Source: a phage. Taken from it: a stretch of DNA of 64,000 bases. Position 1 is the first letter of the stretch, and the number at the start of each line of letters is the position of its first letter. The stretch lies in the NCBI GenBank assembly GCA_012365435.1, contig GCA_012365435.1_4518.1; one strand, 5' to 3'. A program made the translations under genes and the position numbers. Under the pieces are notes generated by a model. It was not told the origin of the DNA, ran no database searches, and saw only the letters and a list, made by a program, of their open reading frames with translations. This document shows, piece by piece, positions 13,086-43,810 of the stretch.

Positions 13086-15299
13086 TTATTTGGCCGCTTC
13101 CACGGCCTTCATGAATTTAACGATTTGAGCGACCTGTTCTTTGGAAAGAGTACCACGTCGTCCCATGTATTCTGACACAATATGATAATTGGTTTCAAAT
13201 TCAATAACCATTTTATCATCATTATCGTAAGCATTATCTTTAAGCTTATCGAAAATTTTAGCACACAATTCTAACTTCCTGTTCAGGTCTGTATTAGTAG
13301 CACCTGCGAATCGATTCCATCCCCAGCGATTATTTACTGTTGAGAGTTTTGCAAAGTCTTTACTGATTTCTTTGTTCTTAGAGCTAAAATATTTACTAAG
13401 GAAATTAAGCTCTTCATTACGAGTAATATGATTCAAATAAGGCTGTGCTCTACGACTTGGTGATACATACTCATCATAATCTACTTTATCGATTAGCATA
13501 ATATAGTCATTAATTGATTTTTCAAACAAACATTCTACTTCACCGAGTTTACGAACTTTCTTAGCAATCTGTGGACGAACTACAGTGAACTCTTTAATAC
13601 CTGACAAATCAGCAATACGAGTCAAGAAATTAGAGTCATAGTTCAACCAACCTTTATCTGCGTCAAGACATTCAGCGTTAGAACGATTACGAATTACAGC
13701 ATAACCTTGAATCTCATCAGCTTTACTGGCCGGAATAAAAAGGTCTTCTGATACCCAAACATCTTTTTCGTTCTTGAAGAAACGATGGGCACTCGGTGAT
13801 TTAGGACGAGGCTGCGATGAACGTTCTTTAACTTCAATCCACGGTTTAACCAATGCAAGAATTTCAGAGGTCTTATAAAATTTAAGGCTATCACCAGCGA
13901 AAATAACCTTTAATCGTTCCAGAAGTTTCATTGCAACTTCATCTTCCGGGTTAATGAATAATACGCTACTACCATATCCGGAAGGAACCTTATCAACGAG
14001 TGTTGATGCATCTGTGGAAGTCAAAGCATCGTTCAGAGCACGCATCATTGGTACGCGTCCTTTCACATCATCAATAACAATATCAATATGCTTACGACCA
14101 ATACCTAGCAGGCTATTAATTGAAATAGTTGAAGACGAGCTTCCGCTTTCACGAATACGACGAAGTCGTGGGTCTGAAACGATATCATATACAACACCAA
14201 GGTTGCACCATTCTGGTCCCATTTTAAAACGTTTGTACAACTCAGAATAAGTTAGTTGTTCTTTAGAATATTTCAGTGATTCAATATTAGAACCGGCTTT
14301 TTCCATGTATTTACGAGCAGAGTAACCAAGAGAATCGATTTCACGGAATACATGACGTGGATATTCACAATCAATCCATTTCTTAGAATCTTCAGCAAAT
14401 AATTTTGCATCAATTTCTGCAACGCGTTTATGGATATTTGCTACTGTACGTTTATCAAATGACAATGCTTCACGAGACGGGGCTACATCTAGTTCACCCA
14501 TAGGGAATTTAATATAAGCTGTAGTGCATCGCGTCATCATCCATGTTTGTTCTTTAATAACACTTCCGATTGGATATACAATACCACCATAAACAGCCAT
14601 GATATTACCACGTTCACCCCATGGAGCTTCCTTGGCCAAATATACATCGTCAAATTCAGGAAAGTATTTAATATCTTTAACACCGCGAACTTCTGCAATA
14701 TCACCTAGAGGACGCATAACATATGCAATTTCAGATGCGAACTTTTCAAAATCTTCTGGGTTAACAGGCACAACTACTTCAACGCCGGTACGGTCATCAG
14801 GGCCCATCTTATCTACAAAGGTTGGCTTAATCTGTGGACCGCTGTCATCTTGGTAGATTACGTAACCACGAACTTCACCATTGTGATAAGACGTAAGGTT
14901 AAACGTATCGGTATATGCTAGTGGAGCTTTAGAGCCGAGTCCGAATCCACCAATGAAATCGTTACTCGATGTTTTAGTTGAAGCAAAATATGAGTTATAG
15001 ATTCCTGGCTCTTCGTCATTACCTCGAATGGTGAAATCACTCATACCAGGACCAAAGTCTCGAACTACAAAACGTGGGTCTAAACGACCTGGAGCCTGAA
15101 CAATAAACTTATCAGTGCAACCATTAAGAATTTGCCCATCGATACAGTTTGTGATTAATTCACGTACACAAGCCAGTTCTTTGTTTGTATAAAGGTCATT
15201 AGACAAAATCTTATAAACTTTGCTATTGCCTTGAATAGTGAATGCTGTGCTCTTACCGCCTGAACCAATAATCGTTTCTTTAGCCGTTTCAATAATCAT
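13086..15299 (-). CDS. rIIA: rIIA protein
   Basis: 737 aa; extensive identity to T4 rIIA (LYTNK...ELITN.ID, PGRLDPRFV.RDFGPGMSDF) as recalled. Confidence 0.9.
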   Translation of the reverse strand: MIIETAKETIIGSGGKSTAFTIQGNSKVYKILSNDLYTNKELACVRELITNCIDGQILNGCTDKFIVQAPGRLDPRFVVRDFGPGMSDFTIRGNDEEPGIYNSYFASTKTSSNDFIGGFGLGSKAPLAYTDTFNLTSYHNGEVRGYVIYQDDSGPQIKPTFVDKMGPDDRTGVEVVVPVNPEDFEKFASEIAYVMRPLGDIAEVRGVKDIKYFPEFDDVYLAKEAPWGERGNIMAVYGGIVYPIGSVIKEQTWMMTRCTTAYIKFPMGELDVAPSREALSFDKRTVANIHKRVAEIDAKLFAEDSKKWIDCEYPRHVFREIDSLGYSARKYMEKAGSNIESLKYSKEQLTYSELYKRFKMGPEWCNLGVVYDIVSDPRLRRIRESGSSSSTISINSLLGIGRKHIDIVIDDVKGRVPMMRALNDALTSTDASTLVDKVPSGYGSSVLFINPEDEVAMKLLERLKVIFAGDSLKFYKTSEILALVKPWIEVKERSSQPRPKSPSAHRFFKNEKDVWVSEDLFIPASKADEIQGYAVIRNRSNAECLDADKGWLNYDSNFLTRIADLSGIKEFTVVRPQIAKKVRKLGEVECLFEKSINDYIMLIDKVDYDEYVSPSRRAQPYLNHITRNEELNFLSKYFSSKNKEISKDFAKLSTVNNRWGWNRFAGATNTDLNRKLELCAKIFDKLKDNAYDNDDKMVIEFETNYHIVSEYMGRRGTLSKEQVAQIVKFMKAVEAAK

Positions 15300-31262: not shown

Positions 31263-31922
31263 TTAACCTCGATTCATAAATGCATTAAATATTTGGTCAT
31301 CAACAGAAATTTCTAATTCGACTTCAATTGCTTCAACCTTTTCTTCAGGTGGTAATTCGTATCCACACACTACAATTTTTTCATCGATATCAAAATATAC
31401 AGAAGCAATACGATTAATGTTACTTTCAGTTAAGTCTAAATCAACATCAACATCTTTTTGACCTACACTTAAAGGATAACTAATACGAGTTATTTTATTA
31501 TCTTTAACAAAGAGTCCACCAACATACTCTGTACTACGTTTGAAGTTTACACGTTTCCGAATTGAAAGATATGATACATCTTTACCGTGAGCTCGGCTCA
31601 TAGGACATAATGAATAGCTAGAATAAGAGATGTCAAATCCTACACCTTCAATATGAGCCAACGTGTCATGAGTAAACCAATTATAATCATATGCCAAATC
31701 CATTAAATTATAATATGTGAAAGGCACTGGATTAACATCATATGTTGTACCTTTAAAATCTGCCCAGGCGACGATTTCGTTATCTTTAACAATTACAAAA
31801 ATTACACCAATATGATATCCGTTATTATTTTCATTCGGTGTTATATTATAACATTGTGCATTAGGAAATTTACCATATTTAAATGGCGCGTTTTTGTGCA
31901 TGTAATAAATCATATTATTCAC
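31263..31922 (-). CDS. Hypothetical protein (219 aa)
   Basis: ORF track. Confidence 0.5.
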   Translation of the reverse strand: MNNMIYYMHKNAPFKYGKFPNAQCYNITPNENNNGYHIGVIFVIVKDNEIVAWADFKGTTYDVNPVPFTYYNLMDLAYDYNWFTHDTLAHIEGVGFDISYSSYSLCPMSRAHGKDVSYLSIRKRVNFKRSTEYVGGLFVKDNKITRISYPLSVGQKDVDVDLDLTESNINRIASVYFDIDEKIVVCGYELPPEEKVEAIEVELEISVDDQIFNAFMNRG

Positions 31923-32208
31923 CTGTGATTTCGGTTACGATATCTTTGTTATCGAAATTAGGGTCACAATACAAAACATAGTTGTACTGCATGATACCAC
32001 CAGACTTAAGTTGTTCAACAACTTTATTAACCATATTAGGACGATCTCGTTTAGTGATGTTCATGATATCAGAGAAGATTTGTTGTTCAACATCTTCTTG
32101 ATTTGCAGTCATTGACCACTCACAGAGGTCTTTATCATAACCTGCCGTAACTGGAGCCGGTGCACATGATACTGCAAGTAGGATTGCTGCCAATGATAAC
32201 TTTTTCAT
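31915..32208 (-). CDS. sp: Spackle periplasmic protein Sp (superinfection exclusion / lysozyme inhibitor)
   Basis: 97 aa as T4 Sp; N-terminal signal peptide MKKLSLAAILLAVSCAPA; position after gene 61. Confidence 0.6.
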   Translation of the reverse strand: MKKLSLAAILLAVSCAPAPVTAGYDKDLCEWSMTANQEDVEQQIFSDIMNITKRDRPNMVNKVVEQLKSGGIMQYNYVLYCDPNFDNKDIVTEITGE

Positions 32209-32237
32209 TTTAACTCCTTAGTTGATTTGATAGGACT

Positions 32238-32266
32238 ACTATACTATAGTCCATCTATAATGTAAA
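32238..32266 (-). promoter_or_regulatory. Early promoter upstream of sp
   Basis: - strand GTTTACA, 17 nt, TATAGT; -10 inside palindrome ggacta...tagtcc. Confidence 0.55.
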
Positions 32267-32271
32267 CAAGT

Positions 32272-32520
32272 TTATTCTTTTTCGCGAATAATAATTACTT
32301 GTTGAGGCTGCTGAGCCGGTTTCTTTTCGGCAACGATAGACCAAATTAAAGTTCCAATCCAACCAACCATCGTCCAGTTAAAGAGTAAAGATACAAAGAA
32401 GATTGCTGTTGTGCTTTTTGTGCCACGAATAAGTGCGATTACCCAAGGCAACATGTAAATGATGATTGAACCAATACCTGCGATTAAAACTGCTACTGAA
32501 CTAGCCACGAATAATTCCAT
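32272..32520 (-). CDS. Imm-family (superinfection immunity-like) small membrane protein
   Basis: 82 aa, two TM segments, block LLFNWTMVGWIGTLIWSIV resembling the Imm_superinfect family consensus as recalled. Confidence 0.5.
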   Translation of the reverse strand: MELFVASSVAVLIAGIGSIIIYMLPWVIALIRGTKSTTAIFFVSLLFNWTMVGWIGTLIWSIVAEKKPAQQPQQVIIIREKE

Positions 32521-32581
32521 GTTAATTTCCTCTTGATTTGTTATGTTTATAGTATCTTGGTTTAACTTTGGTGTAAACCAA

Positions 32582-32950
32582 TTAATTAAATTTGTTTAAA
32601 CGTTCAATACACTGGACGTAGTTATTCGCGATTTGTTTCTGGGTAGGCTCTTTACCAGTTGTTTCAACATAGCGAATAAATGCGATTTCAGTAGCCTGTA
32701 GACAATGTTCTTTAACGCGTTGTTCTTTTGACATAGCTACAGTATCAGAGTCACGATAACGTTGAGCATGAGCATCAGCTTGAATCATTCGATTACCTAC
32801 AGTAACCGGGTCTTCCACTTCAACTTTAGGTTGGTTGTACTGTTTAACATTCGGATTGTAAATCAGTTGGCCAACGTTATTAGGGATAAAGCCATGAGCA
32901 CCACATCCGGTTAATCCAAATACCATTGCTAAAGCGATTAATTTTTTCAT
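32582..32950 (-). CDS. Putative lipoprotein (122 aa)
   Basis: Start at ATG with GAGGAA RBS gives MKKLIALAMVFGLTGC, a lipobox signal peptide. Confidence 0.55.
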   Translation of the reverse strand: MKKLIALAMVFGLTGCGAHGFIPNNVGQLIYNPNVKQYNQPKVEVEDPVTVGNRMIQADAHAQRYRDSDTVAMSKEQRVKEHCLQATEIAFIRYVETTGKEPTQKQIANNYVQCIERLNKFN

Positions 32951-32978
32951 TTCAATTTCCTCTATAGTTGATAGGTCT

Positions 32979-33007
32979 ATAGTATCACTACCATAGACCC
33001 CTGTAAA
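32979..33007 (-). promoter_or_regulatory. Early promoter upstream of lipoprotein gene
   Basis: - strand GTTTACA, 17 nt, TACTAT; flanked by inverted repeat aggtctat/atagacc. Confidence 0.55.
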
Positions 33008-33020
33008 CAATTATTTTATT

Positions 33021-33161
33021 TTATTCCTCGTCTTCATGCTCGTAAGCATGTTCTTCAGATTCACGGTCGCAGTCTAAACAAGTCGCATTATCATATGCAT
33101 CGAAAACAGCTTCGTCTTCATAGACGCTACAACCACACACTACACATTCTACTTCTTCCAT
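33021..33161 (-). CDS. Small acidic zinc-ribbon protein (46 aa)
   Basis: MEEVECVVCGC...CLDC two CxxC pairs, acidic tail; start just after dmd stop. Confidence 0.4.
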   Translation of the reverse strand: MEEVECVVCGCSVYEDEAVFDAYDNATCLDCDRESEEHAYEHEDEE

Positions 33162-33162
33162 T

Positions 33163-33366
33163 TTAGATTTCCTCTTTACGCCAATCGGATTCAAAAACTT
33201 TCTTATCATCAACAAATGCTTCAACTAAAGCTTTATTTACTTCAGCAAATTGAGAAGTGGCCCGTAGGATTTGGTCTTTATCAGACACGTCCATGGTAAC
33301 TTCTTTGGTAAACATATTCCCATTTTCAAACCAACCAATAAACAACACTTTAGCCATATTTTCCAT
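33163..33366 (-). CDS. dmd: Dmd (discriminator of mRNA degradation; antitoxin against RnlA/LsoA)
   Basis: From MENMAKVLFIGWF about 67 aa; matches T4 Dmd (VFMGWF...FTKE.TM...AEVNKALV.AF.DDKKV) as recalled. Confidence 0.7.
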   Translation of the reverse strand: MENMAKVLFIGWFENGNMFTKEVTMDVSDKDQILRATSQFAEVNKALVEAFVDDKKVFESDWRKEEI

Positions 33367-33367
33367 T

Positions 33368-33685
33368 TTAGATTTCCTCACAGAAGGCCCATTCAGCGTG
33401 ATAAACTGTAGCACCTTTAGTATCATTCATTTGAACTACGTCTACCGGAGAAATTACTCGATAGAGACGTGGTTCACCTCCATAAGAGCGTGCTGCTCGT
33501 CCTGCATAAATCTTTGCTAAACCGATATCTTCAGTAAAGAATACACGATCCAAGTTTTTCTTACGTCCAGTTTCAGACAGAACTCCTGTTTCTTCAGGAG
33601 GACAAAGCATGTTTTCGATGTTAGCTGAACTACTTGAACCGTGATAAAAAATCTTAAATTCTGCTTTACAATCGATGGTTTTCAT
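33368..33685 (-). CDS. Arr-like putative mono-ADP-ribosyltransferase (105 aa)
   Basis: FYHGSSS, RVFFTED, RLYRVISP blocks resemble FYHGT/YFSAL/YIYIVEP of the rifampin ADP-ribosyltransferase fold; inserted between dmd and 41. Confidence 0.45.
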   Translation of the reverse strand: MKTIDCKAEFKIFYHGSSSSANIENMLCPPEETGVLSETGRKKNLDRVFFTEDIGLAKIYAGRAARSYGGEPRLYRVISPVDVVQMNDTKGATVYHAEWAFCEEI

Positions 33686-33711
33686 TTTGTTCTCCAGTAG
33701 TTGATAGGTCT

Positions 33712-33739
33712 ATAATAACACAACTACTGGAGAAGTAAA
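33712..33739 (-). promoter_or_regulatory. Early promoter upstream of Arr-like gene, bracketed by 10-bp perfect inverted repeat
   Basis: - strand GTTTACT, 16 nt, TATTAT; ccagtagttg (33694-33703) and caactactgg (33721-33730) flank the -10. Confidence 0.45.
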
Positions 33740-37810: not shown

Positions 37811-38710
37811 TTATTCCTCGATTACGACATCTTCGTATTTAGGTATATTATACGGCGAAGAAATTAAAGCGTTAAAGTAGATGAACTCACCAAGACCTGG
37901 ATGGAATACTTCTTCAGGATTTTCGAAATATTGAATCTTCGGACGTCCTTTAAGAATTTGATAGTACTCAGTTTTAGTTGGTTTAAAAATTCGAATCAGC
38001 GCTTCTTCAGGATACTTATTTCTGTCAAAGCTATTATTTGGATCGGTTATATAAAGCGGTTGACCTAATTGAATTGCGCATTCAACCACTTGTTCAAAAC
38101 GATAACACGGGTCACTAATTCGAAATGGATGAAAAATACCATCTAGATGAATAGGAGCCAAATCACCTACAAGACGCTGCATGACGGAAGGACGTATAAC
38201 TTTCTGCGTTACGATAATCTTATTACCATCGGCACCTGCGTTAACCAGCACTTCCTTTTGACGTTCATTCAACACAGTAGTTTGAAGTGAACGATTAACA
38301 GACAACATGTCGGTTTTTAAGAATTCATCAATATAAAAACGTGGTTTATTAGGGTCTGCAGTGATATTGAAATTGAATTCTACGTCAAAAGCGCCATCAT
38401 ATCCAGTGATATCTGTGATTAGAAAATCACAATCATAATAAGCAATTAATGAATCAACCACAAATTCATTTTCAGACCAGAAATATTTACGAGTGTTATA
38501 CGCGTTATCTTTATACCATAATGGAACAAACTTAAATTCCGGGAAAAGACGTTCACATTCTTTAATATCAGATGCATTACGTGGATATGTAATCACATCA
38601 CCTGGATTAGCACGGTGCAAATGAAGTTGGAAGTTGCCATCCTTAAGGATAGCATACTGTCCAGTTTCATAAGACCGCATACTCAAGATTGGTACGCGGA
38701 AAATAGCCAT
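37811..38710 (-). CDS. Hypothetical protein (299 aa) in the T4 beta-gt slot
   Basis: ORF track; no recognisable similarity to T4 beta-glucosyltransferase. Confidence 0.5.
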   Translation of the reverse strand: MAIFRVPILSMRSYETGQYAILKDGNFQLHLHRANPGDVITYPRNASDIKECERLFPEFKFVPLWYKDNAYNTRKYFWSENEFVVDSLIAYYDCDFLITDITGYDGAFDVEFNFNITADPNKPRFYIDEFLKTDMLSVNRSLQTTVLNERQKEVLVNAGADGNKIIVTQKVIRPSVMQRLVGDLAPIHLDGIFHPFRISDPCYRFEQVVECAIQLGQPLYITDPNNSFDRNKYPEEALIRIFKPTKTEYYQILKGRPKIQYFENPEEVFHPGLGEFIYFNALISSPYNIPKYEDVVIEE

Positions 38711-39426
38711 TAGTCAAGGAATCCTTTAACATAATCAAAATCACGTTCAAACACATGGGCACTTACCATGGTATGAGTATAATCACCAACTTCTACGCCG
38801 CATTCGTTAGCGATATAATGAAGTAATTTTCCTTGGAGATAAAAATCCAACTGCATAACAACAGCACAGTTCTGAGAACGCATATGACAGTGGGTATAAA
38901 GCTTACCATCGCGAATATAATAAGTCACTGAGTCAGTACATGGATATTCAAGTGTTTCGTCCGAATCAAGCAAAGCCTGATCAGAACTTTCTAGAATTTG
39001 GAACACAACTCTTCGAGAGTTAGGTTTCTCTTTAAGTTCTTTTAGAAGAGCTGGTAATTGGGCCGCAATGCGAGGACCATAGAAAGTGTTGAAGTTCGCC
39101 GGCAAAGCGTCTGATTTAGGTTTAGAAATAAATTTAGCGACATTAGGATATGCCTTAAACGCTTCTTCTGCATCAGTACCACCAGAAATCATAAACTTCC
39201 AGAAGTCTTCGGCATATTCATAAGAGATGCGGTTAATACGTGGGTCGGTCATTTTGAATGATGATGGATTGTCAACAACTACTGTCATGGACCTGATTTC
39301 ATTACAACGTCCAATACGAGAATCAGTTACGAATTCAGGATTTTCTAAAATTTCACGATTGACTGCTTTAAATGCGGCTTGAAAATCTGCGGCTTTGATA
39401 TATTTCATTGTGTTATGTTTTCCCAT
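38710..39426 (-). CDS. 42: dCMP hydroxymethylase gp42 (thymidylate-synthase fold)
   Basis: 238 aa; block YPCTDSVTYYIRDGKLY...MRSQNCAVVMQLDF parallels FMCTNTVQYLIRDKK...MRSNDVVFGF of T4 gp42 as recalled; GAGGT RBS. Confidence 0.65.
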   Translation of the reverse strand: MGKHNTMKYIKAADFQAAFKAVNREILENPEFVTDSRIGRCNEIRSMTVVVDNPSSFKMTDPRINRISYEYAEDFWKFMISGGTDAEEAFKAYPNVAKFISKPKSDALPANFNTFYGPRIAAQLPALLKELKEKPNSRRVVFQILESSDQALLDSDETLEYPCTDSVTYYIRDGKLYTHCHMRSQNCAVVMQLDFYLQGKLLHYIANECGVEVGDYTHTMVSAHVFERDFDYVKGFLD

Positions 39427-39468: not shown

Positions 39469-39708
39469 TTATTTGAATTTCTTGGCAATGTTGATATAAC
39501 GTAAAGCTTCAGAATCTATACTTCCAAGAACACTATGAAGGAATGCATCAGTGTAGTATTCCAATTGAACAGGTTCTTTAATCACTTTAGCCGCTTTGGT
39601 TTCAAACAGGCCCATAAGGGCCTTTTTAAGAATTTGTTCGTTAGTGTTCAGTTTTATAGTCAAAATCTCTTCATTAAGTTGGTGGTTAAAAGTTTTTCTA
39701 GAAATCAT
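39469..39708 (-). CDS. Hypothetical protein (79 aa), not Imm-like
   Basis: ORF track; hydrophilic, unlike membrane protein Imm that occupies this slot in T4. Confidence 0.45.
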   Translation of the reverse strand: MISRKTFNHQLNEEILTIKLNTNEQILKKALMGLFETKAAKVIKEPVQLEYYTDAFLHSVLGSIDSEALRYINIAKKFK

Positions 39709-40865
39709 TCCGGGTACCTCAAAGCGTCATCAGAGTTAGTTATATCAATAATAGATATAGAGTTTTCTGATAACCCATTTTTAGATAACTGACGTTTATA
39801 ATATCTTTCACAATATGTACACGTCGTCCCGCAGATTTCATTAGCACAATCGAAATCTGGATGTCTGAACCACCTTTTTTCTAAAAAACCGTCTAACAAT
39901 GAGGTTTCAATATTTACTGTATGTGAAAACTCAGTCTCATTTTCAAGAGTGAAAATAGTCTCTAAAGGCTTCCACAGTTCTAACAAATTACCTTCAAACT
40001 TTTCAGAAGCGTATGCTTCAAGAACTTTCAAAATGTAGTCTGTGCTACCTGTACGTCCTGAAACTTTGAATTGAGTGATACCAATATCATTATAAAGTTT
40101 CAAATCTTGAGGACGAACAAAACGAGTTCTCAGCCAGTTAAATGGGTCTGTATCACGAGCTTTAATACAGTGCTGCATAGGATATCCATTTAAGGATTTA
40201 GCATCATCAGCGGTAACATCAGTACTATGGAAAATATAGCAAGAGTCACGATAGCTACAATGTGTTGTATACCCTTTACCAGCATTAGAACAGAACTCAT
40301 TTACAAGAACTTCAAATATTATATTGTTCTTATTGCAAAACTCTGCTGCACGCTTCAGGAAAGAAACTGAACGGTTCTTATGAATTCCGCAACAGACTTT
40401 TTTGATGTTATATTGGTCGTGCAAGTATTTGATTTGAGTTACAGCATCAACATGTAGAATTGTTGAAACTTCAATCTCAATGTCTTTATTGACTTCACGA
40501 ACAATTTCCATAACAACAGGGTTAGCGATAGTAATACGCCATACGCCTATTGACCAAAGATACTGAACATAATCCTGAATAGCTTTCTTCTTCCACTCAA
40601 CTAGTTCTCTTTTTGAACCAGGATTTATCGTGTTGAGTGTATAGTTAAAGCAAATACCTAATTCGTTACAACGTTTAACGTAGTCTTCTAACATCTTTTT
40701 GTCAACGTCAGGAAGCCTAAAATCAGGTCTGGCTGCTACAAAAGCCATTTCTCTTGTAGAGCCGTATACTTCGTTTATCAAGCTATTAGGATAAGTTTTA
40801 TTGAGCTCTACGATTTTATCAAGAAGAGCTAAATCAAAATTCGTTCCGATTTTAAAAGTATTCAT
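39705..40865 (-). CDS. U32-family-like Cys-rich enzyme (putative Fe-S dependent; function unknown)
   Basis: 386 aa; blocks NPVVMEIVRE and EIEVSTILHVDAV resemble DPGLIMLVRE / PIHLSVQANAV of U32 proteins; Cys clusters VCCG..FCS..HCS..SC and C-x4-C-x3-C-x2-C. Confidence 0.5.
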   Translation of the reverse strand: MNTFKIGTNFDLALLDKIVELNKTYPNSLINEVYGSTREMAFVAARPDFRLPDVDKKMLEDYVKRCNELGICFNYTLNTINPGSKRELVEWKKKAIQDYVQYLWSIGVWRITIANPVVMEIVREVNKDIEIEVSTILHVDAVTQIKYLHDQYNIKKVCCGIHKNRSVSFLKRAAEFCNKNNIIFEVLVNEFCSNAGKGYTTHCSYRDSCYIFHSTDVTADDAKSLNGYPMQHCIKARDTDPFNWLRTRFVRPQDLKLYNDIGITQFKVSGRTGSTDYILKVLEAYASEKFEGNLLELWKPLETIFTLENETEFSHTVNIETSLLDGFLEKRWFRHPDFDCANEICGTTCTYCERYYKRQLSKNGLSENSISIIDITNSDDALRYPE

Positions 40866-40921
40866 TTTTTTGCATCTCGCGTTAATTGATGCGATGGTTT
40901 TTGCAGGTCTTACTTAAATTA

Positions 40922-41323
40922 TTATAGATTCGGTTTATATGATTTAAATGTTTCGAATTCGCCTTTATTCATAAGAGCTTTGAATTCGTCAGGACGCATA
41001 GCTTTGTCGTCGATAATCCAATCATATACTGGTTTATGTGTTAGCAAATTATGGTACTTCAAGCCAATGTTTGCCAAGTTCTGAATCAGACTTGGGAGAA
41101 TGTCAATTGCTATACGACCAGGACCTACTGACTTCATACCACGAGCAGTGTAAAGCGTTATGGTATGCCCTGCATCATACAGGGCATTAATGGCAGACAC
41201 CATTTCGACGTCCGGTTTGAAGTTCACGTAATCACGATTGTTATTCCACTCTGTTATACAATCATCGACATCAAAACAAAGATTAAGCATGTTTTCTACA
41301 CGGTGCATTAGATTCGTTCCCAT
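40922..41323 (-). CDS. HAD-superfamily small phosphatase (KdsC-like)
   Basis: 133 aa; HAD motif I FDVDDCIT near N-terminus; coordinates from ORF track. Confidence 0.55.
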   Translation of the reverse strand: MGTNLMHRVENMLNLCFDVDDCITEWNNNRDYVNFKPDVEMVSAINALYDAGHTITLYTARGMKSVGPGRIAIDILPSLIQNLANIGLKYHNLLTHKPVYDWIIDDKAMRPDEFKALMNKGEFETFKSYKPNL

Positions 41324-42993
41324 TGATGAGTGATATCGCCACCGATTGGACGATAGGAAACACCAGTTTCTTTATCAGTTAGTACCCATTTACCAGGATT
41401 TTTTGTAATCAGAGTAGCCGTTACAGGTTCTGCTACGTCATAACTAATAGAGCCGTCTTGAAGTACACGGCCCATGTTACGTAATTGCTTAGTCAGAAGT
41501 TCCATACCTTTATAATATGCGGCTACCGCTTTAAGTGGATTATTCTTGAAATAACCACCTAATGCAATCCAGATAATTGCTACTGCCAAATGATGATACT
41601 CGTTAAACGAACTCATCTTTCCATATTTGTAAACTAATGGATTGATGTTAATAGTCACATTACAAGTTGTTTCATCAATAGTAAACTGTCCCCAGGTCGG
41701 ATTAGCATTGAATTCATCATAACCTGAAACAGCATAAAGCACTTTAGCTTCATCATATAATTTTGGCCCGTAAATCTTGGTTTCACCAAAATATCCACGA
41801 GGGTCGATAAACTTGACTTCGCCGTTATCAGTAATCATAGTATTACTGAAGTTCGGGTCACCGTGAATAACAGAGTACTGTCCCTGAGAACGATTATGAT
41901 AACGAATAAGGTGTTCTAAAGCTTGTTTCAGCATTGGCTTCAGACGTCCAATCTTAGTGTAGTTCACGTGTGTGATTTTACCAAATGAATCAATCAATGG
42001 CTGAATGCTTTCACAACGATCAATAACTTTCGTATAGAATTCTTTAGTGAAATCACGACGAACAGTTTCAGGACTTACAAAATAAGTGTCTGTGCTGAAT
42101 TTCAGTGCATCTAAAATTGCATCAACAATTTGTGGACGAGCAAGACTTGATTTGGATTTAATATATTCAAATGCTGGCTTACCTTTAATACGTTCCATTT
42201 CAAAATTATTTTCATTTACCGAAACTAACTGAGGAACTGAATCTGATTTCACTTTCAAATACCATGAAATCTCATCTTTTTGAAGAGCTCGACCTTGTTC
42301 GGTTAACGCGAATTTAGTTACAGTTTCTTCGCCAATTTCAACTGCATTAAAACTACGATTAAGTTCACGAACTTCATGGGCCTTTTCAAGTTTAGGCATA
42401 TCACCTAAATCAATTAGATTCATAAGCTCTGATTTATTGAATGCACTGCCGTAAAGGAATTCTACGAAATCACGTCCTTTGCAGTATTCATGAATTTCCT
42501 CATCAGTAGAACCCATGTAGAATTCCCAGTCTTTGAACTGATAAATTCCTACAACATTACCGCCTGTTGAACCTACGTTAGTGATATTTTCACCATCGAA
42601 ATTATATCGACATTCATCACCCTTAACATAGATTGCGTTAACATTCCAAGACCATGAACCAAAATCAGGAATAATATCACACCAGTTAACAATTACGTTA
42701 TGGCCATCTAAATCTTTGTATAATTTAGCAAGAGCATAAGCAGAACCATACGCTTCATCAACTGTACGAATAGTCACATTGAACCCTTCTTGCTCGCAAT
42801 AAGCTCGAACAGTTTCAGCAAATTTTGAATGAACTACTACAATAATTTCATCTGCGCCAAGGTCAGAATAAATTGTATACAAATTGCTCAGAATAGTGTC
42901 TTGTTTATAGTTAACAAGAACTTTTGGAATATGATGCGTTATTGGATACAAACGAGTTGCCAGTCCAGCACCAAGAATAACAGCTTTTTTCAT
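41308..42993 (-). CDS. Bifunctional sugar-1-phosphate nucleotidyltransferase / APH-like sugar kinase
   Basis: 561 aa; N-terminal MKKAVILGAGLATRLYPIT (RmlA/MurU-type NTase); C-terminal VIHGDPNFSNTMI and FIDPRG (APH/choline-kinase-type catalytic motifs). Confidence 0.7.
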   Translation of the reverse strand: MKKAVILGAGLATRLYPITHHIPKVLVNYKQDTILSNLYTIYSDLGADEIIVVVHSKFAETVRAYCEQEGFNVTIRTVDEAYGSAYALAKLYKDLDGHNVIVNWCDIIPDFGSWSWNVNAIYVKGDECRYNFDGENITNVGSTGGNVVGIYQFKDWEFYMGSTDEEIHEYCKGRDFVEFLYGSAFNKSELMNLIDLGDMPKLEKAHEVRELNRSFNAVEIGEETVTKFALTEQGRALQKDEISWYLKVKSDSVPQLVSVNENNFEMERIKGKPAFEYIKSKSSLARPQIVDAILDALKFSTDTYFVSPETVRRDFTKEFYTKVIDRCESIQPLIDSFGKITHVNYTKIGRLKPMLKQALEHLIRYHNRSQGQYSVIHGDPNFSNTMITDNGEVKFIDPRGYFGETKIYGPKLYDEAKVLYAVSGYDEFNANPTWGQFTIDETTCNVTININPLVYKYGKMSSFNEYHHLAVAIIWIALGGYFKNNPLKAVAAYYKGMELLTKQLRNMGRVLQDGSISYDVAEPVTATLITKNPGKWVLTDKETGVSYRPIGGDITHQWERI

Positions 42994-43174
42994 GTTGTGG
43001 TCCTCATTGGTAAGTAGGTGTATTGTACACTATTCTAGTTAAAGCATTCATACTTTGCTTGTAGTCCAATCATAATCCATCCAATTACAAGTGTTGGAAT
43101 CATTACTGGAGCCGTTAAGCTCCAGTAGATAGTCATGACAAGCATCAATAGTAAAAGTCCTATTGTTATTGCTT

Positions 43175-43810
43175 TCATTGTTCGCCTCGTAACATGGCAC
43201 CTAGTGCACCGCCTGGGTGGAACTTAAGGAAGTCATTAGAGGTAAATCCACGTTCAGACGAAAGGTTGATAGCGAACGTATCGATAAGCGCTAACAACAA
43301 TGTAGTGGACATGGTCGGAGCCAGAGAATTCTCATCAACCTCTACCGCGATGCCTGTACAGAAAGAGTAATCAAAAAGGGCTTCATTTTCTTGCGGAATG
43401 TCCGGGTTACAATGCAACAGAATCTGTTTGACATTTGGACGAATCATTTTAAGATGCTTAGCCACGCCTATCATTTCTTCAGTTTTACCAGAACGACTAA
43501 TATGAATCAACACATCATTAGGCGCAATGAATCCTGCATCACCGTGAGAATAATGCCCGGTGTTCAAGTACATACTTGGGATACCGAGTGAAGCAAATGT
43601 CTCAGAAGCTTTAGTTGCAATATTAGCATTCTTACCAACACCTGTAATAATTACTCGGCTTTCATAATTACTAAGTCCAGGGCGTCGAAGAGTTTCTAGA
43701 ATAGCATTATAACGAGCAGGGTTTTGACTAATTACTTTGGCCATAGCGGCCAAAGAAGAAGCTTGTTTTATAATTGCGTCAATAGCGATAGTAATAGGAG
43801 TAGTTTTCAT
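43175..43810 (-). CDS. SIS-domain sugar-phosphate isomerase, KdsD/GutQ-like (putative D-arabinose-5-phosphate isomerase)
   Basis: 211 aa; ITGVGKNANIA...ISRSGKTEE...LAPTMSTT...FHPGGALG mirrors the KdsD SIS domain motifs as recalled; no CBS domains. Confidence 0.7.
   Translation of the reverse strand: MKTTPITIAIDAIIKQASSLAAMAKVISQNPARYNAILETLRRPGLSNYESRVIITGVGKNANIATKASETFASLGIPSMYLNTGHYSHGDAGFIAPNDVLIHISRSGKTEEMIGVAKHLKMIRPNVKQILLHCNPDIPQENEALFDYSFCTGIAVEVDENSLAPTMSTTLLLALIDTFAINLSSERGFTSNDFLKFHPGGALGAMLRGEQ

What the first reader, a model, noticed from the sequence alone, without database searches (positions are those of the whole stretch)
31915..32520. Imm-family membrane protein encoded next to spackle (sp) rather than next to gene 42
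The 82-aa two-TM protein at 32272-32520 has the LLFNWTMVGWIGTLIWSIV block I associate with the superinfection-immunity (Imm) family. It sits beside sp, the other superinfection-exclusion gene, while the ORF in the T4 imm slot after gene 42 is hydrophilic. This suggests the two exclusion functions have been brought together into one early cassette.
Basis: inference. Interest (0 to 1): 0.45.

Follow-up and report, generated by a model that had tools for sequence, protein, structure and literature searches.

The report
RB69-type imm gene beside spackle
The 82-residue membrane protein is the RB69-group (Mosigvirus) counterpart of the phage T4 superinfection-immunity protein Imm, and it does sit next to spackle; public RB69-type genome records already annotate this, so it is an ordinary known feature with a modestly interesting evolutionary history.

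Summary
Observation confirmed. The window is a Mosigvirus (RB69-like) genome, 98.9% identical to Shigella phage SHSML-52-1. ORF 32272-32520 (-) matches Pfam Imm_superinfect at 56.9 bits (cutoff 27.9). It is 64% identical to T4 Imm over its full length. ORF 31915-32208 (-) is Spackle (145 bits, 66% to T4 Sp).

The RB69 reference record already annotates sp-imm-imm.1, and about 155 phage records share the arrangement.

New detail:
- The gene upstream of imm (32582-32950) is the T4 imm.1 lipoprotein homologue, so the imm.1-imm pair moved as a unit.
- Every other Tevenvirinae genus I examined keeps imm just after DNA polymerase gene 43, so the Mosigvirus position is derived.
- A separate imm-then-sp adjacency exists at a different locus in Gualtarvirus and Providencia phage PSTCR6.
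- imm.1, imm and sp each carry a T4-early-type promoter motif. A module breakpoint between RB69 and this phage falls inside the imm.1 promoter, which fits promoter-mediated shuffling.

The likely function, inferred by homology, is that Imm blocks DNA entry by binding the incoming phage's tape measure protein. The two residues whose mutation impairs T4 Imm are conserved here. Whether the adjacency is selected is untested.

The parts
31915..32208 (-). sp (spackle). Periplasmic inhibitor of the gp5 tail lysozyme of superinfecting phage. It keeps its ancestral position directly upstream of 61.2/adfA.
   Evidence: PF25676 T4_Spackle at 145 bits. 66% identical to T4 Sp. Matches PDB 6x6o/7cn6 at E 1.4e-39. 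The two cysteines C29 and C81 are invariant in alignment A2.
32238..32267 (-). T4-early-type promoter motif in front of sp (GTTTACA, 17 nt, TATAGT). A 6-bp inverted repeat, GGACTA/TAGTCC, overlaps the -10 hexamer.
32272..32520 (-). imm, the 82-aa inner-membrane superinfection-immunity protein and orthologue of T4 Imm.
   Evidence: PF14373 at 56.9 bits against a cutoff of 27.9. phrog_1039. 63.9% identical to T4 Imm over its full length. 98.8% identical to RB69 imm, RB69p036. R32 and W49, equivalent to T4 R33 and W50, are invariant in 10 diverse Imm proteins.
32549..32578 (-). T4-early-type promoter motif in front of imm (GTTTACA, 17 nt, TACTAT), inside a 61-nt spacer. In T4 the imm.1-imm gap is only 7 nt.
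32582..32950 (-). imm.1, a 122-aa predicted lipoprotein (lipobox LTGC) and homologue of T4 Imm.1. It travels together with imm.
   Evidence: 32% identical to T4 Imm.1, E 1.7e-17. Pfam DUF5481 at 36.7 bits against a cutoff of 27. Annotated imm.1 in RB69 as RB69p037. A lipoprotein gene precedes imm in six genera.
32979..33008 (-). T4-early-type promoter motif in front of imm.1 (GTTTACA, 17 nt, TACTAT), with the inverted repeat GGTCTAT/ATAGACC. Similarity between RB69 and this phage breaks inside its spacer.
39469..39708 (-). 79-aa hydrophilic ORF occupying the slot beside the gene-42 position. It is not Imm-like.
   Evidence: GRAVY -0.18 with no hydrophobic stretch. No Pfam match. No BLAST hit to the T4 proteins of that interval.
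43035..43178 (-). 47-aa membrane ORF, homologue of T4 42.1. In T4 this gene lies directly downstream of imm. Here it stayed in the 43-42 interval.
   Evidence: 57% identical to T4 gp42.1 over 30 aa, E 4e-12. Hydrophobic.

Best explanation
The ORF at 32272-32520 is the Mosigvirus orthologue of T4 imm. It is encoded together with its upstream lipoprotein partner imm.1.

In the RB69 lineage this two-gene module lies between the dmd/61.4 position and sp, not between genes 43 and 42. This is a lineage-specific relocation. It probably arose by recombination between the repeated early promoter/leader cassettes that precede almost every small gene in this region.

The rest is inferred by homology. Imm would be made within minutes of infection from its own sigma-70 early promoter and inserted into the inner membrane. 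There it would bind the tape measure protein of a superinfecting T-even-type phage, so that no DNA channel opens. Sp, encoded 63 nt downstream, inhibits the incoming phage's gp5 lysozyme in the periplasm.

Shown here: family membership, orthology, location, conservation of the arrangement, its derived status, and the promoter motifs. Inferred: expression timing, exclusion activity, the relocation mechanism, and any advantage of adjacency.
For: Family and orthology. There is a single copy in the window and one matching place per Mosigvirus record.

Same arrangement in public data: the RB69 reference and about 155-158 records.

imm.1 homology.

Other genera: imm lies directly after gene 43 in T4, UPEC07, fDHCT2, KM16, Muldoon and JIPh_Kp122.

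Divergence: Imm (64%) and Sp (66%) differ from T4 about as much as flanking core genes do (gp43 62%, UvsX 68%, gp61 74%). This fits descent within the T-even group rather than import from a distant phage.

Promoters: GTTTACW-N17-TAYWRT occurs 8 times in the window, all on the coding strand, against 0.09 expected. Three of the eight precede imm.1, imm and sp. No terminator-like site lies between these genes. Eight promoter/leader regions from the window and T4 align from the -35 hexamer to the ATG. They fit the T4-type PeSL consensus TTTACW-N17-TAYWAT (PMC4122927).

Breakpoint: similarity between RB69 and the window ends inside the imm.1 promoter spacer, and a different ORF lies upstream in each phage.

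Mechanism: T4 Imm co-purifies with a gp29 tape-measure fragment, and R33A and W50A reduce exclusion (bioRxiv 10.64898/2026.03.06.709160). Both residues are invariant here. For the Sp mechanism see PMC7677548.
Against: There are no expression or exclusion data for this phage or for RB69 Imm in anything I could search. The promoters are consensus matches only.

The similarity of the window's imm promoter to T4's sp promoter is short, and it is shared with a whole promoter sub-family. It does not identify the recombination joint.

The direction of the move rests on parsimony over a handful of genera, not on a reconstructed tree.

Intragenomic transposition cannot be told apart from acquisition of the module from a related T-even phage followed by loss of the original copy.

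The tape-measure mechanism comes from a single preprint on T4.
Confidence: 0.85

Rival explanations
1. The adjacency is a selected exclusion cassette. Imm.1 (lipoprotein), Imm (inner membrane) and Sp (periplasm) would be kept together because tight linkage or co-expression of the envelope-level exclusion functions is advantageous. One possible advantage is that co-adapted alleles are not separated by the very high recombination seen in mixed T-even infections.
For: imm followed directly by sp occurs at a second, unrelated locus, the tk-rI region. This is seen in Gualtarvirus (Providencia PSTRCR_121 and PSTRCR_127, Morganella MP1 and Rgz1) and in Providencia phage PSTCR6, where the reading frames abut or overlap by a few nucleotides.

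Those proteins are only 29-38% (Imm) and 30-34% (Sp) identical to the window's, whereas the window's proteins are 64-66% identical to T4's. The two adjacencies therefore did not arise by transfer of one pair.

MP1 has neither gene in the 43 or 41-61 slots.

Three strong early promoter motifs lie within 770 nt, and no terminator-like site separates them.
Against: Both genes are small, dispensable early genes that sit in hyperplastic regions, where shuffling is frequent. Two adjacencies among a limited number of slots is only weak evidence; my rough estimate is about a 5% chance for the second one.

Most Tevenvirinae keep the two genes about 6 kb apart without obvious cost. Bragavirus has imm at the tk-rI locus with no sp beside it.

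Of 80 Imm loci from IMG/VR, only the two Mosigvirus-like contigs have Sp within 4 kb.
Confidence: 0.25
2. The relocation is neutral. The imm.1-imm module landed next to sp by chance during promoter-mediated modular shuffling, perhaps when the 43-42 interval was rebuilt around the cytosine-arabinosylation cluster. The adjacency would then have no functional meaning.
For: Repeated promoter/leader cassettes flank each small ORF. A between-phage breakpoint lies inside one of them.

The 42-43 interval of this phage is filled by SIS, nucleotidyltransferase, U32-like and ThyA-like genes, which correspond to the RB69 arabinosylation cluster (PMC13326640).

PeSL-type shuffling has been described for T4-like phages (PMC2839356 and PMC4122927).
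Against: Phage fDHCT2 keeps imm directly after gene 43 even though the following genes resemble a modification cluster in size and order. Cluster acquisition therefore need not displace imm, although I did not verify the homology of those genes.

The independent second adjacency in Gualtarvirus is mildly unexpected under pure chance.
Confidence: 0.55
3. The 82-aa protein is an Imm-family paralogue with a different role, for example a holin-like or other small membrane protein, and not the functional immunity protein.
For: The Imm_superinfect family is broad. It is found in many unrelated small phage and prophage contigs, and function has been tested only for T4 Imm.
Against: The protein is 64% identical to T4 Imm over its full length, including the C-terminal QVIIIREKE tail. 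It is the only Imm-like ORF in the window, and each Mosigvirus record has a single matching place. The residues required in T4 are conserved. It is still paired with imm.1.
Confidence: 0.05

Closest known systems
RB69 imm (RB69p036, NP_861726) with sp (RB69p035) and imm.1 (RB69p037) in NC_004928
   Same: This is the same gene. The protein is 98.8% identical. The order sp-imm-imm.1 and the position between 61.2 and dmd are also the same.
   Different: Only the ORF upstream of imm.1 differs. RB69 has a 61.4-like ORF there, whereas this phage has a 46-aa CxxC...CxxC ORF. The breakpoint lies inside the imm.1 promoter.
T4 Imm (gene imm; UniProt P08986, the accession quoted in the preprint read)
   Same: 63.9% identical over 82/83 aa with the same hydrophobic pattern. 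The equivalents of R33 and W50 are conserved. It is preceded by an Imm.1 lipoprotein gene. It is presumably an early gene.
   Different: The genome position differs. T4 has 43-imm.1-imm-42.1-42, whereas this phage has dmd-ORF46-imm.1-imm-sp-61.2. In T4 imm follows imm.1 after 7 nt and overlaps 42.1. Here a 61-nt spacer with its own promoter motif precedes imm.
imm-sp pair of Gualtarvirus (Morganella phage MP1 gp081/gp080; Providencia PSTRCR_121) and Providencia phage PSTCR6
   Same: An Imm_superinfect protein is followed directly by a T4_Spackle-family protein on the same strand.
   Different: The locus differs: it lies downstream of tk and rI. The genes overlap or abut with no promoter between them. 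The proteins are shorter (64 and 80 aa). Identity to the window's proteins is only about 29-38% for Imm and 30-34% for Sp. No imm.1-type lipoprotein lies upstream.
PeSL mobile regulatory cassettes of T4-like phages (Arbiol et al. 2010, PMC2839356; Comeau et al. 2014, PMC4122927)
   Same: The early promoters match TTTACW-N17-TAYWAT and carry small inverted repeats. They are repeated in front of small variable ORFs. A between-genome breakpoint lies inside one of them.
   Different: The inverted repeats here overlap the spacer and -10 hexamer, and they were not scored as terminators. No recombination intermediates or minicircles were tested. The sp promoter's -10 hexamer (TATAGT) departs from the published consensus at one position.
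[quoted passage not shown]
   Same: The proposed mode of action is the same: a small inner-membrane protein blocks membrane insertion of an incoming pore-forming protein (the tape measure protein, or a colicin). The T4 preprint draws this analogy.
   Different: No sequence relationship was tested or claimed. This is a functional analogy only.

Membership tests
Imm_superinfect (PF14373) / T4 Imm orthologue | Profile match above the curated threshold, covering the whole model | tested here: met
   56.9 bits against a cutoff of 27.9, E 1.9e-15, model positions 1-42 of 42. phrog_1039 at E 3.2e-30.
Imm_superinfect (PF14373) / T4 Imm orthologue | Full-length similarity to T4 Imm, and single copy in the genome | tested here: met
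   63.9% identity over residues 1-82. One Imm-like ORF in the window. One matching place per Mosigvirus record.
Imm_superinfect (PF14373) / T4 Imm orthologue | Small (about 80 aa) hydrophobic membrane protein with two hydrophobic regions separated by a basic loop | tested here: met
   Kyte-Doolittle stretches at residues 1-34 and 40-59 with GRAVY 0.93. T4 Imm gives the same pattern. No dedicated topology predictor was available.
Imm_superinfect (PF14373) / T4 Imm orthologue | Conservation of the residues whose mutation impairs T4 Imm (R33, W50) | tested here: met
   R32 and W49 are invariant in a 10-sequence alignment spanning several genera. The mutant data come from bioRxiv 10.64898/2026.03.06.709160.
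Imm_superinfect (PF14373) / T4 Imm orthologue | Early expression | tested here: inconclusive
   A strong T4-early-type promoter motif lies 29 nt upstream of the ATG, and the motif is highly enriched on the coding strand. No transcript data exist.
Imm_superinfect (PF14373) / T4 Imm orthologue | Blocks DNA entry of superinfecting phage and binds the tape measure protein | not testable with these tools
   This needs plating-efficiency and pull-down experiments.
Imm_superinfect (PF14373) / T4 Imm orthologue | T4 synteny (between genes 43 and 42). This is typical of Tevenvirinae but does not define the family. | tested here: not met
   The gene lies between imm.1 and sp. The 42-43 interval holds other genes.
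T4_Spackle (PF25676) | Profile match, similarity to solved T4 Spackle, conserved cysteine pair, N-terminal signal sequence, and position upstream of 61.2 | tested here: met
   145 bits. PDB 6x6o at E 1.4e-39. C29 and C81 are invariant. 61.2/adfA follows directly, as in T4.
Imm.1 / DUF5481 (PF17578) | Profile match, similarity to T4 Imm.1, lipoprotein signal, and position directly upstream of imm | tested here: met
   36.7 bits against a cutoff of 27. 32% identical to T4 Imm.1, E 1.7e-17. Lipobox LTGC. Homology to the 146-148-aa lipoproteins that precede imm in Moonvirus, Jiaodavirus and Muldoonvirus is inconclusive: hhalign aligns only the N-terminal 45 columns, which cover the signal-peptide and lipobox region.
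PeSL regulatory cassette | Early promoter consensus plus stem-loop, repeated at the borders of variable ORFs, and associated with indel or replacement breakpoints | tested here: inconclusive
   The promoter consensus is met for imm.1 and imm and nearly met for sp. Short inverted repeats are present but are not terminator-like. One breakpoint lies inside a promoter. Recombination activity cannot be tested here.

The most novel reading that the evidence does not exclude
Imm and Sp, and in Mosigvirus also the lipoprotein Imm.1, have been brought into direct adjacency at least twice independently in Straboviridae. One case is Mosigvirus, at the sp locus. The other is Gualtarvirus and PSTCR6, at the tk-rI locus. 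Linkage of the inner-membrane, periplasmic and lipoprotein layers of superinfection exclusion would be favoured by selection. The conserved lipoprotein-then-imm gene pair would mark Imm.1 as an uncharacterised third component of exclusion.
Probability: 0.25. Interest if true: 0.45.

Novelty: already known. Interest (0 to 1): 0.2.

Why it matters
The gene identification adds nothing new. RB69-type records already label this gene imm, next to sp.

Three modest points follow from the comparative work:
- Nature has packaged the known T-even exclusion genes into one unit of about 1.1 kb (31915-33008). The unit could be deleted or transplanted as a block when designing T-even phage cocktails whose members should not exclude each other.
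- The conserved lipoprotein-imm pairing and the second imm-sp adjacency give testable leads. One is whether Imm.1 takes part in exclusion. The other is whether linkage of these genes is selected.
- The region is a clean example of promoter-bounded module shuffling.

Tried and rejected
1. Structure prediction of Imm.1 from a 3-sequence alignment gave mean pLDDT 63. Only the C-terminal helical hairpin was confident. I judged this too weak for a fold search and did not run one.

2. The homologue search for Imm.1 returned only 3 proteins, so no deep alignment could be built.

3. Profile-profile comparison of Imm.1 with the lipoproteins that precede imm in other genera aligned only the N-terminal 45-57 columns, which cover the signal-peptide and lipobox region. 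I do not take this as evidence of homology.

4. I tried to identify the recombination joint from promoter similarity. The window's imm promoter best matches T4's sp promoter, and the window's sp promoter best matches T4's dmd promoter. The same motifs recur in other promoters of the window, so I rejected this as evidence of a specific joint.

5. No solved structure matches the Imm profile.

6. Neither of the two main open-access comparative papers on RB69 and T4-related genomes contains 'imm' as a whole word. I found no published discussion of the relocation, but the searchable library is limited.

7. For ORF105 (33368-33685) I recalled a resemblance to Arr-type ADP-ribosyltransferases. There was no Pfam hit and no PDB sequence hit. 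The single-sequence model was unusable, with pLDDT 41. I dropped the lead.
Full report
WHAT THE WINDOW IS. A 2.1-kb query around the finding is 98.9% identical to Shigella phage SHSML-52-1. It matches 155 phage records over at least 80% of its length, nearly all from Escherichia and Shigella phages. SHSML-52-1 and RB69 are classified in Straboviridae, Tevenvirinae, Mosigvirus. All genes in this part of the window lie on the minus strand.

CHECK OF THE OBSERVATION. ORF 32272-32520 (-) encodes 82 aa, including the quoted LLFNWTMVGWIGTLIWSIV block.
- It matches the whole Pfam Imm_superinfect model at 56.9 bits (gathering cutoff 27.9, E 1.9e-15). It also matches PHROG 1039 'immunity to superinfection'.
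- It aligns end to end with T4 Imm at 63.9% identity.
- It has the same two hydrophobic stretches separated by a basic loop as T4 Imm.
- It is the only Imm-like ORF in the window.

ORF 31915-32208 (-), 63 nt downstream, is Spackle. It scores 145 bits against PF25676, is 66% identical to T4 Sp, and matches solved T4 Spackle structures. The ORF beside the gene-42 position (39469-39708) is hydrophilic and matches nothing.

IT IS ALREADY ANNOTATED. The RB69 reference record lists sp (RB69p035), imm (RB69p036), imm.1 (RB69p037), a 61.4-like ORF and dmd in this order. SHSML-52-1 and dozens of other records label the same two genes. I also searched the phage collection with a chimeric Imm+Sp protein query, a design that joins the two matches only when they lie close together. 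It found 158 records with both parts in one place. All but a handful are Mosigvirus-type.

The ORF directly upstream of imm probably starts at the ATG at 32950, giving MKKLIALAMVFGLTGC... with a lipobox.
- It is 32% identical to T4 Imm.1 (E 1.7e-17) and matches Pfam DUF5481.
- The T4 order is 43, imm.1, imm, 42.1, 42.
- The order here is dmd, a 46-aa CxxC ORF, imm.1, imm, sp, 61.2.

The pair therefore moved intact and in the same orientation. The T4 42.1 homologue stayed behind in the 43-42 interval, at 43035-43178.

WHICH ARRANGEMENT IS DERIVED. imm lies directly downstream of gene 43 in T4, Gaprivervirus UPEC07, fDHCT2, Moonvirus KM16, Muldoon and Jiaodavirus JIPh_Kp122. In Tequatrovirus-type and other records the Imm and Sp matches fall in two separate places. 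sp keeps its T4 position immediately upstream of 61.2, both in T4 and here. By parsimony, the imm.1-imm module moved to sp in the Mosigvirus lineage. Imm (64%) and Sp (66%) are about as diverged from T4 as gp43 (62%), UvsX (68%) and gp61 (74%). The genes are therefore T-even-type and were not imported from a distant phage. Imm.1 is much more diverged, at 32%.

A SECOND ADJACENCY ELSEWHERE. The chimeric query also picked up Providencia phage PSTRCR_121.
- There a 64-aa Imm_superinfect protein (51.4 bits) is followed, with a 4-nt overlap, by an 80-aa T4_Spackle-family protein (77.3 bits).
- The same pair occurs in Morganella phages MP1 and Rgz1 and in Providencia phage PSTRCR_127 (all Gualtarvirus-type). 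A 44%-identical version occurs in Providencia phage PSTCR6.
- The locus is different: it lies downstream of tk and rI.
- MP1 has neither gene in the 43 or 41-61 intervals.
- The related Bragavirus phages have imm at that locus but no detectable sp.
- These proteins are only about 29-38% (Imm) and 30-34% (Sp) identical to the window's. The Mosigvirus adjacency is therefore a separate event.
- Among 80 Imm loci from IMG/VR, only two Mosigvirus-like contigs had Sp within 4 kb.

Two independent juxtapositions are suggestive of selection for linkage, but they are weak evidence. Both genes are small, dispensable residents of hyperplastic regions.

REGULATORY ANATOMY AND A LIKELY RELOCATION MECHANISM.
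- The T4-early-type pattern GTTTACW-N17-TAYWRT occurs eight times in the 64-kb window, always on the coding strand, against 0.09 expected. Three of the eight lie directly in front of imm.1, imm and sp.
- No terminator-like site separates these genes. Overlapping early transcripts are therefore likely, but this is three promoters, not one operon.
- In T4 the imm.1-imm gap is 7 nt. Here it is 61 nt and carries a promoter motif.
- Eight promoter/leader regions from the window and T4 align from the -35 hexamer to the ATG. Some share leader motifs such as CTATCAACTA.
- They fit the T4-type PeSL promoter consensus TTTACW-N17-TAYWAT of Comeau et al. 2014 (PMC4122927).
- Similarity between RB69 and this phage ends inside the spacer of the imm.1 promoter, and a different ORF lies upstream in each phage. 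These cassettes therefore do act as exchange points.
- This makes promoter-mediated modular shuffling the most plausible route for the relocation. That step is inference. I could not identify the original joint (the similarities are motifs of a promoter family).

HOW IT MOST LIKELY WORKS (BY HOMOLOGY). According to a 2026 preprint, T4 Imm co-purifies with a tape-measure (gp29) fragment, and R33A and W50A reduce exclusion (10.64898/2026.03.06.709160). The corresponding R32 and W49 are invariant across ten Imm proteins from several genera. Sp inhibits the gp5 tail lysozyme (PMC7677548), and its cysteine pair is conserved. I therefore expect the window's Imm to block DNA translocation of superinfecting RB69-type or T-even phages at the inner membrane, while Sp acts in the periplasm. 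None of this has been tested for this phage.

THE ROLE OF IMM.1 IS UNKNOWN. A lipoprotein gene of 122-148 aa immediately precedes imm in six genera: Mosigvirus, Tequatrovirus, Moonvirus, Muldoonvirus, Jiaodavirus and a Gelderlandvirus-like contig. It does not do so in the Gaprivervirus-type, Bragavirus or Gualtarvirus loci. Whether the longer lipoproteins are homologous to Imm.1 is unresolved.

CONTEXT OF THE VACATED SLOT. Its RB69 counterpart, gp48, makes 5-hydroxy-dCMP. The genes between it and gene 43 match the described cytosine-arabinosylation cluster: SIS, nucleotidyltransferase and U32-like (PMC13326640). Rebuilding of this interval may have accompanied the move of imm.1-imm. However, fDHCT2 keeps imm next to gene 43 with a similar-looking downstream cluster, so displacement is not obligatory.

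VERDICT. The added value is threefold. The relocated unit is imm.1-imm. The Mosigvirus arrangement is derived and bounded by shuffling-prone promoter cassettes. An independent imm-sp adjacency exists in another lineage. Interest is low (0.2). The selected-cassette reading has a probability of about 0.25.

Noticed in passing
window 31263-31922 (-): The T4 61.2 homologue directly downstream of sp matches Pfam AdfA (anti-DarT factor A) at 393.9 bits. Together with dmd (33163-33366), imm.1, imm and sp, this makes the 41-61 interval a compact anti-defence and exclusion island.
   Followed up: partly
window 38710-39426 (-) and 39705-43810 (-): The 'gene 42' here is only 25% identical to T4 gp42. It corresponds to RB69 gp48, which has been shown to make 5-hydroxy-dCMP (PMC13326640). 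The genes between it and gene 43 (U32-like, a 133-aa ORF, a 561-aa nucleotidyltransferase, SIS isomerase) fit the cytosine-arabinosylation cluster.
   Followed up: partly
window 33156-33174 and 33361-33379: An exact 19-nt direct repeat (GAGGAAATCTAAAATGGAA on the minus strand) forms the same stop/Shine-Dalgarno/start junction at the ORF105|dmd boundary and at the dmd|46-aa-ORF boundary. It may be another short homology used for module insertion.
   Followed up: no
window 33021-33161 (-) compared with L010 (RB69) 14751-14963: Between dmd and imm.1 this phage has a 46-aa acidic CxxC...CxxC ORF (phrog_13952), where RB69 has a 61.4-like ORF. Similarity between the two genomes resumes inside the imm.1 promoter spacer.
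   Followed up: yes
window 33368-33685 (-): This is a 105-aa ORF (phrog_2110, RB69ORF040c-like) with an FYHGS... motif that reminded me of Arr-type ADP-ribosyltransferases. There was no Pfam hit and no PDB sequence hit, and the single-sequence structure model was unusable (pLDDT 41). It remains unresolved.
   Followed up: partly
window 33685-33739: A 19-nt inverted repeat, 89% complementary with a 17-nt loop, overlaps the promoter-like site in front of ORF105. It is the longest hairpin in the region and resembles the promoter-plus-stem-loop design of PeSL cassettes.
   Followed up: no
L011 4016-4449; L012 5001-5434; L013 5001-5467: Gualtarvirus phages and Providencia phage PSTCR6 encode short Imm (64-69 aa) and Spackle-family (80-85 aa) proteins as an abutting or overlapping pair downstream of tk and rI. 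In several of these records both genes are annotated only as hypothetical proteins.
   Followed up: yes
L005 3522-3962; L008 3517-3960; L006 3528-3974; L021 3526-3972: A lipoprotein gene of 146-148 aa (lipobox LTGC or LAGC, with two conserved C-terminal cysteines) immediately precedes imm in Moonvirus, Jiaodavirus, Muldoonvirus and a Gelderlandvirus-like contig. This mirrors imm.1-imm in T4 and RB69, although no clear sequence homology to Imm.1 was found.
   Followed up: partly
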